From assembly GCF_016026235.1 (NCBI RefSeq), contig NZ_CP065614.1: a stretch of DNA of 64,000 bases; one strand, 5' to 3'. Below are positions 46,401 through 49,400 of the stretch, one piece after another (the stretch's first letter is position 1; each line of letters opens with the position of its first letter). A program made the position numbers. Source of the DNA: Escherichia coli (GTDB lineage Bacteria > Pseudomonadota > Gammaproteobacteria > Enterobacterales > Enterobacteriaceae).

Positions 46401-49400
46401 CAGAACGGAAGCGTCCGGGCACCTTCACGGGGTGTGAACACCGGATTCGGGTTCTTTACCTGGCGGTAATACGTTTGTTGAAGATCAGTCACACCATCCT
46501 GCACTTACAATGCGCAGAAGGAGTGAGCACAGAAAGAAGTCTTGAACTTTTCCGGGCATATAACTATACTCCCCGCATAGCTTGATTGTTGGCTATACGG
46601 TTTAAGTGGGCCCCGGTAATCTTTCTGACTCGCCAAAGTTAAAGAAGATTATCGGGGTTTTTGCTTTTCTGGCTCCTGTACATCCACATCAGAACCAGTT
46701 CCCTGCCACTTTACGGCGTGGCCAGCCACAAAATTCCTTAAACGATCAGTAATCTAGCACTGACAGAAAAAACTAGCAAGAATGTGATCCCATCACATCA
46801 TGTTCCTGTGACAGGCCTCTTTCTCGATAAGCCTTTCTATCAACTCTGCCTGAGTTACCCCTTCCTCTGCACACAGACTGGTAAGGTAGTTTTTCAGTTC
46901 TGGTCTGACGAAAACCTTGATCTCTTTACATACAGATCGTTTGCGCGCAGAAGCTGCTCTCTGTCGTTCTGCTTCACTCAAAGGTTTACCCTTTCTGTAT
47001 GCTCGTTTTGCGCCAGATGAGGAAGTCACTGCATTTTCTGTCTGCGACATCTCGCCTCCTCAATACTCAAACAGGGATCGTTTCGCAGAGGATACTACAG
47101 TTTTTTGAAATCAGCGACTTGAGAATTGTGACGAAGATCTGTGTTGGCGCACAAATCAACGGGGATTACTGTCGTTTAATGTGATTTAAACTGTGAAATA
47201 GTATGGTTTTCAGTTATGGAAACGCCGGGAGCGGGGAAAACTTGCTTTTTCCCGTTTCCGGGGTTGGACAACTGAGCAACGCGAAGGCGTCAGCTACGAT
47301 GTTCCGGGGACTGCTGATCAGCCCCTGTTGTATTCAGCCATTCTCCGGTCATCTGCAGCAGTTTTCTGGCATCGTGGCTTCTGAGCAACGGAATACCAGC
47401 CTGCCTCAGAACCTCTTCCAGAAGAATATCCCGGCGTCTGCGTTCCGGTCGTAAATGGCTGGCATCATCCAGCTCTACTGCTGCAACAATACTGAACGAA
47501 CGCCGCTCAACGATAACCACATCAACATGCCACTGAGACACCATCCTGAATAACTGCCACCACTGGCGTGATCGTGGCCGGATATTCCCGTTCAGCTGGA
47601 CGATATCCGCGACCCGTACCTGCGGACACAGATACCACCGCTTAAAATCAGCGGTGTGCGGGTTGAACGTCCAGGGCTCACCCGTGCACTGGAAATACTT
47701 CGTGAAGGCGACACACTGGTTGTCTGGAAGCTCGATCGTCTGGGGCGTAGCGTAAAACAGCTTGTTGATATGGTTGGTGAACTGCACAAACAAGGTATTC
47801 AGTTCAAAAGTCTCACAGACGCTATTGATACAGGAACACCGGCGGGGCGTTTCTTTTTTCATGTGATGGCCAGCCTTGCAGAGATGGAGCGAGAGTTGAT
47901 CATCGAACGTACCCGGGCCGGGCTTGATGCAGCAAAGCAACTCGGCCGTAAAGGTGGGCGAAAACCCAAAATGACCAGTAGCAAAATTGAATCGGCTAAA
48001 AAACTATTAGCCAGCGGTATCCCTCCCAGAGACGTAGCTAAAGATCTCGGTGTTTCCGTACCAACGCTGTATCGCTGGTTGCCAGCATCAAAAAATTCTT
48101 AGAGCACATTCAGGAAATTACGGTTTTCATGCTCCACAAATAGTGAAACCGTAAGTTTCTGTTCAAATGCTCCCGCTGGTCCCGCTTCATATCCACAATT
48201 CTGAACAGTCCTTTCATAAAACTGACTTCCCTTTCTGTCAGCAGCGTCTTCTGACGTTGCCAGCATTCACCGCTGGACAGTATTCGCTCTGCATCACCGG
48301 TCCGTATACCTGCCGCATGCAATTGCATCAGCAAAGGAGAATGCTGATTTACACTTCTGAGGATAATCCGGATAAGTAACGCTGCAATAATCAGAACAAT
48401 GAGAATAAAAATAATCAACTTCATTATTTATCTGCTCCTGGCAATTAATTATGCTGAGTTATTACCTTACATATTTCCATATCTCTTTTGGTATCCTGTC
48501 ATATAACTTTCCGGTGATTAACTCCGCTAACCGGTGGTCTGCTGCTGAATTAAATGATTCACGTTCACTGTTTGATAAACTGTCTCTGTTTTTATGAATA
48601 ATTTTTTCCAGCGTATTGACTGATGAACATCGCCGTAACTGATACAGCCATTCCTGTTTTGTTTTTGCCATTTTTATTCCCGCTGAGAACAGATGAATGA
48701 TAAGATTGCCATCGCTTTATTTACGGCGTCTCCATATCCAGGGGGGAACCGGATCAGCATCTGACCAGAGCCCACGTTTTTGTTGTCTGGCTTCGTTCTG
48801 AAGGACAGGCAGCACGGGATCTGTGTTGTACTGCTCATATACCCAGGCAGCCCCGGCCCGAACCATAAACTGATTAATATTCATTCCGTCTGGTGCATAA
48901 ACCTGCCCGAGAATACGACCATAGCGATCTCGCTGAAAATATGTGACGGTAACCGTTTTTCCTGCAACCAGTGATTTCATCATGTCCGTTGACCACCGAC
49001 CATAATCCTGTTTCTTTTCCGGTGCATCAATATTTACCAGCCTGATCCGCACCGCCTTCAGTGAGTCCATTACCTCGATGGTATCACCGTCCAGTACACG
49101 AATAACCCGTCCATGAATATCTGCAGACAATACCGGCCATGAAAAGATAAATAATACCAGTGGAATATATTTCCTCATGTTATTCTCCATATCAGATAAA
49201 TGGCACCTGTATTTCAGGCATCCTGAATATTGCAGCACACATTGAACAACACCTTATTTTGTGAAATTAATCACAAAATATAAAAAATCGACTTAATGCG
49301 GAAAAGACTCTGTGCTACTCAGAACTGTCCGGTCATACTGCCCGACCGGATATTAAGAAGCAAATCACATAAACTCCTTTCAGCCTTCTGACTCCTGGAG

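What the first reader, a model, noticed from the sequence alone, without database searches (positions are those of the whole stretch)
47290..48102. Decayed serine recombinase next to an upstream ORF on the opposite strand
The resolvase-like gene lacks its catalytic N-terminus. A 216-aa minus-strand ORF overlaps it in antisense; only its C-terminal third (47290-47570) has a protein-like pattern (HVDVVIVERRSFSIVAAVELDDASH...AGIPLLR) that I tentatively associate with small nuclease-related domains. This may be a degraded multimer-resolution module.
Basis: inference. Interest (0 to 1): 0.3.

Follow-up and report, generated by a model that had tools for sequence, protein, structure and literature searches.

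The report
Transposon scrap splitting a plasmid gene
A 539-base piece of a Tn3-type transposon (the tail of its recombinase gene plus one terminal repeat) has landed inside a conserved plasmid gene of unknown function and split it; it is an ordinary, non-functional insertion scar, not a decayed plasmid-resolution system.

Summary
Window 47656-48102 (+) encodes a serine recombinase without its catalytic N-terminus. The antisense 216-aa ORF is real only in its C-terminal part, which is a DUF2726 domain.

The two are not a module. The window is the IncF backbone of an EIEC/Shigella dysenteriae pINV plasmid. The DUF2726 gene is a conserved backbone gene between copB/repA2 and hha. Here it is split by a 539-bp insert (47644-48182) flanked by a 5-bp direct repeat, CGCTT. 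Removing the insert and one repeat copy restores a 196-aa ORF identical to the intact protein in other IncF plasmids.

The insert is the right end of a 4,873-bp Tn3-family transposon: codons 34-185 of an invertase-like tnpR, then 80 bp ending in the 38-bp terminal inverted repeat. The full element (tnpA, a TPR ORF, tnpR) occurs in two Klebsiella plasmids. The insert's left end has no inverted repeat and no IR-like sequence.

One IR, one arbitrary end and a 5-bp target duplication fit one-ended (aberrant) Tn3-family transposition best (about 0.6). The main rival is a full insertion followed by a precise internal deletion.

There is no recombination site nearby and no catalytic serine. RefSeq already marks all three pieces as pseudogenes. 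Interest is low.

The parts
47290..47643 (-). 3' part of the split DUF2726 backbone gene (C-terminal 115 complete codons, the last base of split codon 81, and the stop)
   Evidence: Pfam DUF2726 E 3.9e-18. 100% identical to L001 519-1145. Rejoining it with 48188-48424 gives a 196-aa ORF identical to WP_000766816.1. RefSeq marks it as a pseudogene 'missing N-terminus'.
47639..47643 (.). Left copy of the 5-bp target-site duplication, CGCTT
   Evidence: The empty site in L001 has a single CGCTT. The window has one copy on each side of the insert.
47644..48182 (+). 539-bp insert: the tnpR-side end of a Tn3-family transposon, with one IR only
   Evidence: Absent from the otherwise collinear IncF backbone. 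94.4% identical to positions 4335-4873 of the 4,873-bp Klebsiella transposon and 97.4% to Serratia pQC19. In three unrelated contexts, homology stops at the same right-hand base.
47644..48102 (+). 5'-truncated tnpR (Gin-like serine recombinase), codons 34-185 plus stop; the catalytic Ser9 is missing
   Evidence: Pfam Resolvase positions 48-144 of 145, plus HTH_7. Alignment to the intact 185-aa proteins. Closest solved structure is Gin invertase, PDB 4m6f, E 3e-69. RefSeq pseudogene.
48145..48182 (-). 38-bp terminal inverted repeat GGACCAGCGGGAGCATTTGAACAGAAACTTACGGTTTC, outer end at 48182
   Evidence: 38/38 identical to the tnpR-side IR of the Klebsiella transposon, whose two IRs match each other at 37/38 and are flanked by the 5-bp duplication ATCCA. 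19/38 ungapped identity to the Tn3 IR as I recall it, sharing the GAAC..AAACT.ACG core.
48183..48187 (.). Right copy of the 5-bp target-site duplication, CGCTT
48183..48424 (-). 5' part of the split DUF2726 gene (start codon, N-terminal hydrophobic helix, 80 codons plus 2 bases of codon 81)
   Evidence: Collinear with L001 1140-1382. ORF 48110-48424 begins MKLIIFILIVLIIAALLIRI..., identical to the intact protein for 81 residues, and then reads into the insert. RefSeq pseudogene 'missing C-terminus'.

Best explanation
Shown: the window is IncF plasmid backbone of the EIEC/Shigella pINV type, ordered traI-traX-finO-SNase nuclease-hha-DUF2726-copB/repA2-repA1. Its DUF2726 gene is interrupted at a CGCTT pentamer by 539 bp taken from one end of a Tn3-family transposon. 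That transposon is 4,873 bp and carries tnpA, a TPR ORF and a Gin-like tnpR. The piece starts inside tnpR at codon 34, with no inverted repeat. It ends exactly at the transposon's 38-bp terminal IR and is flanked by a 5-bp duplication of the target. Inferred: the Tn3-family transposase made the insertion in a one-ended (aberrant) transposition event. The tnpR-side IR was cleaved and joined to the staggered target, DNA was copied inward from that IR, and the event ended after 539 bp at an arbitrary point that was joined to the other target end. This reproduced the 5-bp duplication without a second IR. The result is inert. The DUF2726 gene is knocked out. The recombinase remnant lacks residues 1-33, including its catalytic serine, and has no cognate site. 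The scrap has no transposase and only one IR, so it persists only as a lineage marker of these pINV plasmids.
For: - Empty-site comparison: window 47017-47643 matches L001 519-1145 and window 48182-49496 matches L001 1140-2457. The backbone is therefore complete and only 5-6 bp is duplicated.
- Deleting 47644-48187 restores a 196-aa ORF 100% identical to the intact protein.
- The right end is a true transposon terminus. The 38-bp IR is identical to that of the Klebsiella element, which has 37/38 IRs, an ATCCA 5-bp duplication and a DDE_Tnp_Tn3 transposase.
- Homology ends at the same base in Klebsiella, Serratia and Salmonella contexts.
- The left end is not IR-like. It has 10/38 ungapped matches, which is the median of all transposon positions. 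Its local alignment score of 16 is reached by 13% of positions.
- Microhomology between donor and target at the left junction is 1 base.
- No full-length copy of the element exists in any E. coli or Shigella record searched: PLSDB, 72,556 plasmids, and 5,426 complete E. coli genomes.
- The same plasmids carry a 354-bp scrap of the other (tnpA) end about 83 kb away. It has the same ~94% identity to the Klebsiella copy, so the element was once present in this plasmid lineage.
[quoted passage not shown] 1988).
- That such products carry the normal 5-bp duplication is my recollection of Motsch et al. 1985 (Nucleic Acids Res 13:3335). I could not read that paper here.
Against: - The event itself cannot be observed; only its product is seen.
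- As far as I recall, published one-ended products were mostly long (about donor-plasmid length). Those experiments selected for donor markers, so a 539-bp product has no documented precedent that I could read.
- Tn3-family target immunity would be expected to disfavour a second insertion into a plasmid that already carries an IR of the same element. The 354-bp scrap could be such an IR.
- I found no second natural example. The similar 421-bp fragment in a Salmonella plasmid has no duplication and abuts IS91-like DNA.
- A full insertion followed by a deletion gives the same final sequence.
Confidence: 0.6

Rival explanations
1. A complete 4.9-kb transposon inserted normally into DUF2726, making the CGCTT duplication. 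A later deletion removed everything from the outer base of the tnpA-side IR to codon 33 of tnpR.
For: Normal two-ended transposition is far more frequent than one-ended events. pINV plasmids are rich in IS-mediated rearrangements, for example the IS91 that cut the other scrap. The final sequence is equally compatible.
Against: The deletion would have to start exactly at the first base of the IR, leaving the 5-bp duplication untouched, and there is only 1 bp of microhomology. No IS or other element sits at the junction. No record with the full-length insertion at this site exists in PLSDB or in 5,426 E. coli genomes. No established mechanism deletes inward from a Tn3-family end.
Confidence: 0.25
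2. A pre-formed miniature element was mobilised by ordinary two-ended transposition, using the true IR plus a cryptic IR-like sequence inside tnpR as its second end (a TIME-like event).
For: The left end reads AAAATCAGCGGTGTGCGGGTTGAAC. It shares CAGCGG and TTGAAC with the IR at roughly similar offsets. Tn3-derived miniature elements are known (PMC4133298).
Against: The resemblance is no better than chance. It has 10/38 ungapped matches (48th percentile), and its local score is reached by 13% of positions in the transposon. The inner half of the IR has no counterpart at all. That the inner half is the transposase-binding part is from my own knowledge of Tn3. The same 539-bp unit is found in only one genomic context.
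Confidence: 0.08
3. One reading: a native plasmid multimer-resolution module, a resolvase with an accessory nuclease-like gene, that has decayed in place.
For: A serine recombinase fragment lies next to a PD-(D/E)XK-like ORF near the replication region, where resolution systems often sit.
Against: The recombinase piece is a discrete insertion with a transposon IR and a target duplication. Thousands of IncF plasmids have DUF2726 intact with no recombinase beside it. The fragment is 94-97% identical to the tnpR of a Tn3-family element in other genera. No res/gix-like site is present in the window.
Confidence: 0.02

Closest known systems
One-ended transposition products of Tn3-family transposons (Tn21, Tn1721, Tn3; Avila et al. 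1988, cited in PMC4133298)
   Same: The insert begins exactly at a single terminal IR and has an arbitrary non-IR endpoint on the other side. It also has the family's 5-bp target duplication.
   Different: The experimental products I recall were long replicon fusions selected through donor markers. This is a natural 539-bp product seen only as a sequence scar, and transposase dependence has not been shown.
Tn3-family transposon of K. pneumoniae pCAV1344-40 (NZ_CP011620.1 4968-9840; unnamed in the record)
   Same: The window's 539 bp are 94.4% identical to its last 539 bp, with an identical 38-bp IR. Both show 5-bp duplications.
   Different: The window has only 11% of the element. It lacks tnpA, the TPR ORF, the intergenic res-like region, the second IR and the first 33 codons of tnpR.
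[quoted passage not shown]
   Same: A short, non-autonomous Tn3-derived sequence flanked by a 5-bp duplication.
   Different: TIMEs have two IRs and are repeatedly mobile. This piece has one IR and occurs at a single site.
Gin/Hin/Pin DNA invertases and gamma-delta/Tn3 resolvases (small serine recombinases)
   Same: The remnant keeps the C-terminal two thirds of the catalytic domain, including the E-helix, and the HTH_7 DNA-binding domain. The intact homologue matches Gin (PDB 4m6f) at E 3e-69.
   Different: Residues 1-33, including the nucleophilic Ser9, are absent and there is no cognate site. It cannot catalyse recombination.
DUF2726 (PF10881) genes of IncF plasmid backbones (e.g. WP_000766816.1)
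   Same: The two halves together are 100% identical in protein sequence to the intact 196-aa gene. They sit in the same position between hha and copB/repA2.
   Different: The gene is split after codon 80 by the insert and is therefore a pseudogene here.

Membership tests
Tn3-family transposon (the source element and its fragment) | DDE transposase of the Tn3 type (about 1,000 aa) | tested here: met
   The Klebsiella copy encodes a 986-aa protein matching DDE_Tnp_Tn3 (E 2e-131) and DUF4158. This gene is not present in the window.
Tn3-family transposon (the source element and its fragment) | About 38-bp terminal inverted repeats | tested here: met
   The IRs of the Klebsiella copy match at 37/38, within 65-nt arms. 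The window holds one IR, identical at 38/38, at 48145-48182. The window has no second IR.
Tn3-family transposon (the source element and its fragment) | 5-bp target-site duplication | tested here: met
   ATCCA flanks the Klebsiella copy. CGCTT flanks the window's fragment, and the empty site has a single copy.
Tn3-family transposon (the source element and its fragment) | Cointegrate-resolution module (recombinase plus res site) | tested here: inconclusive
   The full element has an intact serine recombinase. It also has gix/hix-like sequence in the tnpA-orf intergenic region, but no function was tested. Only the truncated recombinase is in the window.
One-ended transposition product | Exactly one genuine IR, with the other end arbitrary and not IR-like | tested here: met
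One-ended transposition product | Formation depends on the cognate transposase | not testable with these tools
   Needs a transposition assay.
TIME / miniature inverted-repeat element | Two terminal IRs bracketing a short non-coding core | tested here: not met
   There is no IR at the left end.
Small serine recombinase (resolvase/invertase), as a functional enzyme | N-terminal catalytic domain with the nucleophilic serine (Ser9/10) | tested here: not met
   The Pfam match starts at profile position 48. The alignment shows residues 1-33 missing, including YARVST.
Small serine recombinase (resolvase/invertase), as a functional enzyme | C-terminal HTH DNA-binding domain | tested here: met
   HTH_7 E 1e-12, profile positions 1-44 of 45.
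Plasmid multimer-resolution module | Active recombinase with an adjacent res site, conserved with the plasmid backbone | tested here: not met
   The recombinase is truncated and foreign. It is absent from about 1,870 E. coli genomes that have the same backbone site. No res/gix-like site was found.
DUF2726 (PF10881) | Pfam match above the gathering score | tested here: met
   65.8 bits against a cut-off of 24.7 for the C-terminal piece, and 77.1 bits for the intact homologue.
DUF2726 (PF10881) | Nuclease (PD-(D/E)XK-like) activity | not tested
   There is only a sub-threshold match to REase_MTES_1575, E 1e-4. No solved homologue was found by sequence and no PADLOC hit.

The most novel reading that the evidence does not exclude
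This is a natural, sequence-preserved example of short-range one-ended transposition by a Tn3-family transposase. If so, single IRs can seed small TSD-flanked insertions of arbitrary adjacent DNA in the wild. Some 'truncated transposon' scars in plasmids would then be primary transposition products rather than decay, and the scar would be a clean phylogenetic marker linking the EIEC and some S. dysenteriae pINV plasmids.
Probability: 0.5. Interest if true: 0.3.

Novelty: new member of a known kind. Interest (0 to 1): 0.15.

Why it matters
It matters little for function. The locus is a dead insertion scar, and public annotation already flags the three pseudogene pieces.

It has modest value in two ways. 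First, it corrects a tempting misreading: a recombinase next to a nuclease-like ORF is not a resolution module. Second, it gives a tidy natural candidate for one-ended Tn3-family transposition, which is known mainly from 1980s plasmid-fusion experiments. It also provides a shared-derived marker for tracing the pINV plasmids of EIEC and a subset of S. dysenteriae.

Tried and rejected
- **Cryptic IR at the left end.** A local alignment found CAGCGG...TTGAAC in common with the IR. Scanning every position of the transposon showed this is unremarkable, at the 48th percentile ungapped and 13% for the local score. Rejected.
- **Microhomology-mediated deletion.** Donor sequences upstream of the breakpoint share only 1 base with the target flank. 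Not supported.
- **A second natural example.** The 421-bp tnpR-end fragment in Salmonella Macclesfield (L006) has no 5-bp duplication and abuts IS91-like DNA. It is not a parallel case.
- **A full-length precursor at the same site.** The junction pattern ACCACCGCTTGGACCAGCGGGAGCATT gave 0 hits in metagenome and genome contigs. The real junction is also absent from those collections, so these negatives are uninformative. The informative negatives are PLSDB and the E. coli genomes.
- **A res/gix-like site in the window.** None found. BLAST of the whole transposon against the window finds only the 539 bp.
- **Function of DUF2726.** No PADLOC hit, no NCBIfam hit and no solved homologue by sequence.
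- **Primary literature on one-ended Tn21/Tn1721 transposition.** The papers are not held in the library. Only a secondary citation could be read.

Full report
**What is at the coordinates**

- ORF 47656-48102 (+), 148 aa, matches Pfam Resolvase only over profile positions 48-144 of 145. A complete HTH_7 domain follows.
- The 216-aa ORF 47290-47940 (-) overlaps it in antisense. Only its residues 102-190 match a family. The match is to DUF2726 (E 3.9e-18, above the gathering score). There is also a sub-threshold match to the restriction-endonuclease-like model MTES_1575.

**Context**

The neighbours identify an IncF plasmid backbone. All of these genes are on the minus strand:
- repA1 at 45635-46504 (IncFII_repA)
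- copB/repA2 at 46793-47050 (RepB-RCR_reg)
- hha at 48462-48671
- an SNase-type nuclease at 48717-49238
- finO at 49764-50375
- traX, and traI at 51145-56415

Megablast of 47100-48500 against PLSDB gives 100% matches only in large (234-295 kb) E. coli plasmids. Two Shigella dysenteriae pINV plasmids match at 99.8%. One of the E. coli records is named p152661_pINV. Thousands of other IncF plasmids match in two pieces with a gap.

**The key result: an insertion, not a truncation**

I aligned the window to an ordinary IncF plasmid, L001 (NZ_CP075464.1), where DUF2726 is an intact 591-bp gene between copB/repA2 and hha.
- Window 47017-47643 equals L001 519-1145 at 100%.
- Window 48182-49496 equals L001 1140-2457.
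- The backbone is therefore complete. The window simply has extra DNA at 47644-48182.
- The pentamer CGCTT occurs once in L001 and once on each side of the extra DNA in the window, at 47639-47643 and 48183-48187.
- Deleting the insert plus one CGCTT in silico restores a 196-aa ORF that is 100% identical to the intact L001 protein, WP_000766816.1.
- The N-terminal 80 codons of the gene lie at 48183-48424.

**What the insert is**

The 539 bp have intact, longer relatives.
- They are 97.4% identical to Serratia marcescens pQC19 and 94.4% to K. pneumoniae pCAV1344-40.
- In the Klebsiella plasmid the region reads Tn3-family transposase (divergent), then a 340-aa ORF, then a 185-aa recombinase.
- An inverted-repeat search finds 65-nt arms at L007 669-733 and 5477-5541.
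- The outer 38 bp of those arms match each other at 37/38: GGACCAGCGGGAGCATTTGAACAGAA(A/C)CTTACGGTTT.
- The 4,873-bp element is flanked by the 5-bp duplication ATCCA.
- The transposase has the DDE_Tnp_Tn3 and DUF4158 domains, and the middle ORF is a TPR-repeat protein.
- This is a bona fide Tn3-family transposon.

The window's insert is its last 539 bp.
- It holds codons 34-185 of tnpR (47644-48102) and then 80 bp ending in the 38-bp IR. That IR is 38/38 identical, with its outer base at 48182.
- Homology to the Klebsiella, Serratia and Salmonella copies ends at that same base in three unrelated flanking contexts. So 48182 is a genuine transposon terminus.

**The recombinase remnant**

Alignment with the intact proteins shows that residues 1-33 are missing, including the motif YARVS(9)T. 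The intact protein is closest to the phage Mu Gin invertase (PDB 4m6f/3uj3, E 3e-69). In 3uj3 this serine is replaced by alanine. The protein is more distant from the gamma-delta and Tn3 resolvases, at E about 1e-25 to 1e-27. The remnant therefore cannot be catalytic. RefSeq's PGAP annotation of the identical plasmid pCFSAN029787_01 already lists three pseudogenes here: DUF2726 missing its N-terminus, a recombinase missing its N-terminus, and DUF2726 missing its C-terminus.

**No resolution site**

BLAST of the whole transposon against the 64-kb window finds only the 539 bp. In the full element, gix/hix-like sequence such as TTCTCACAAACCAGGGTTTTCTTT lies in the tnpA-orf intergenic region, outside the inserted piece. 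A degenerate gix/hix core pattern has no match in the window even with two mismatches. The insert is present in 7 of 5,426 complete E. coli genomes, while about 1,870 have the uninterrupted site. The 'degraded multimer-resolution module' reading is therefore rejected.

**How the scar arose**

The anatomy is one true IR, one arbitrary end inside a gene, a perfect 5-bp duplication and an otherwise untouched target. I considered three routes.

[quoted passage not shown] 1988). My recollection of Motsch et al. 1985 is that such products keep the 5-bp duplication. I could not read that paper. This route explains every feature directly.

(b) *A normal full-length insertion followed by a deletion.* The deletion would have to run from the first base of the tnpA-side IR to codon 33 of tnpR.
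- It needs a breakpoint coinciding exactly with the IR/duplication boundary.
- Microhomology there is only 1 bp, and no IS sits at the junction.
- No full-length copy at this site, or anywhere in E. coli or Shigella records, was found in PLSDB or the E. coli collection.

(c) *Two-ended transposition using a cryptic IR in tnpR.* The left end shares CAGCGG and TTGAAC with the IR. That similarity sits at the 48th percentile (ungapped) of all positions in the transposon, and 13% of positions reach its local score.

I put (a) at about 0.6, (b) at 0.25 and (c) below 0.1.

**Supporting context and caveats**

- The same pINV plasmids carry a second scrap of the element about 83 kb away. It is 354 bp of the tnpA end with its IR, cut on the inner side by an IS91-family element. 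Its identity to the Klebsiella copy is the same, about 94%.
- No middle part of the transposon is present. The element, or at least its ends, was therefore once resident in this plasmid lineage.
- That scrap is more widespread (S. boydii, S. flexneri, S. dysenteriae, EIEC) than the 539-bp one.
- Tn3-type target immunity, which I know from the literature, would argue against a second hit into a plasmid that already carries an IR. Immunity is not absolute, and the order of events is unknown.
- Searches of metagenome and species-representative genome contigs for the precursor junction found nothing. The real junction is absent there too, so those scans are uninformative.
- A superficially similar fragment in a Salmonella plasmid has no duplication and abuts IS91-like DNA.

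**Verdict**

The feature is an ordinary insertion scar that inactivates a conserved IncF gene of unknown function. It is not a module of any kind. The mildly interesting point is that its structure is best read as a primary one-ended Tn3-family transposition product. It also marks a pINV sub-lineage shared by EIEC and some S. dysenteriae. Novelty: a new member of a known kind. Interest: low.

Noticed in passing
window 43728-44555 (+): An IS91-family transposase fragment (Pfam Y2_Tnp, E 1e-58) sits just beyond the RepFIIA replicon. The same element type truncates the other scrap of the transposon elsewhere in the plasmid.
   Followed up: partly
L003 (S. dysenteriae pINV NZ_CP119451.1) versus window 48419-49274: The S. 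dysenteriae plasmid shares the identical 539-bp insert. It has additionally lost the stretch holding the 5' tip of DUF2726, hha and the SNase nuclease. The insert therefore predates that deletion.
   Followed up: partly
L008 3001-3354 (NZ_CP065612.1 168323-168676), outside the window: A second scrap of the same Tn3-family element: 354 bp of the tnpA end with its IR, cut by IS91. It occurs in many Shigella boydii, flexneri and dysenteriae and EIEC pINV plasmids, so it is more widespread than the 539-bp scrap.
   Followed up: partly
L007 669-5541 (K. pneumoniae pCAV1344-40): The parent transposon is unusual for its family. Its IR starts GGACC rather than GGGG. Its 'resolvase' is far closer to Gin-type invertases than to the Tn3 and gamma-delta resolvases. 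It carries a 340-aa TPR-repeat passenger ORF, labelled shiA in Serratia pQC19. Full-length copies occur in only two PLSDB records.
   Followed up: partly
L007 2326-2552: The intergenic region between tnpA and the TPR ORF contains gix/hix-like sequence (TTCTCACAAACCAGGGTTTTCTTT) and related imperfect inverted repeats. This is a candidate res site for an invertase-like resolvase.
   Followed up: no
window 47290-47643 and 48183-48424; L001 792-1382: The DUF2726 backbone protein has an N-terminal hydrophobic helix and is conserved in about 1,870 of 5,426 E. coli genomes. It has no NCBIfam or PADLOC family and no solved homologue by sequence, so its function is unknown.
   Followed up: partly
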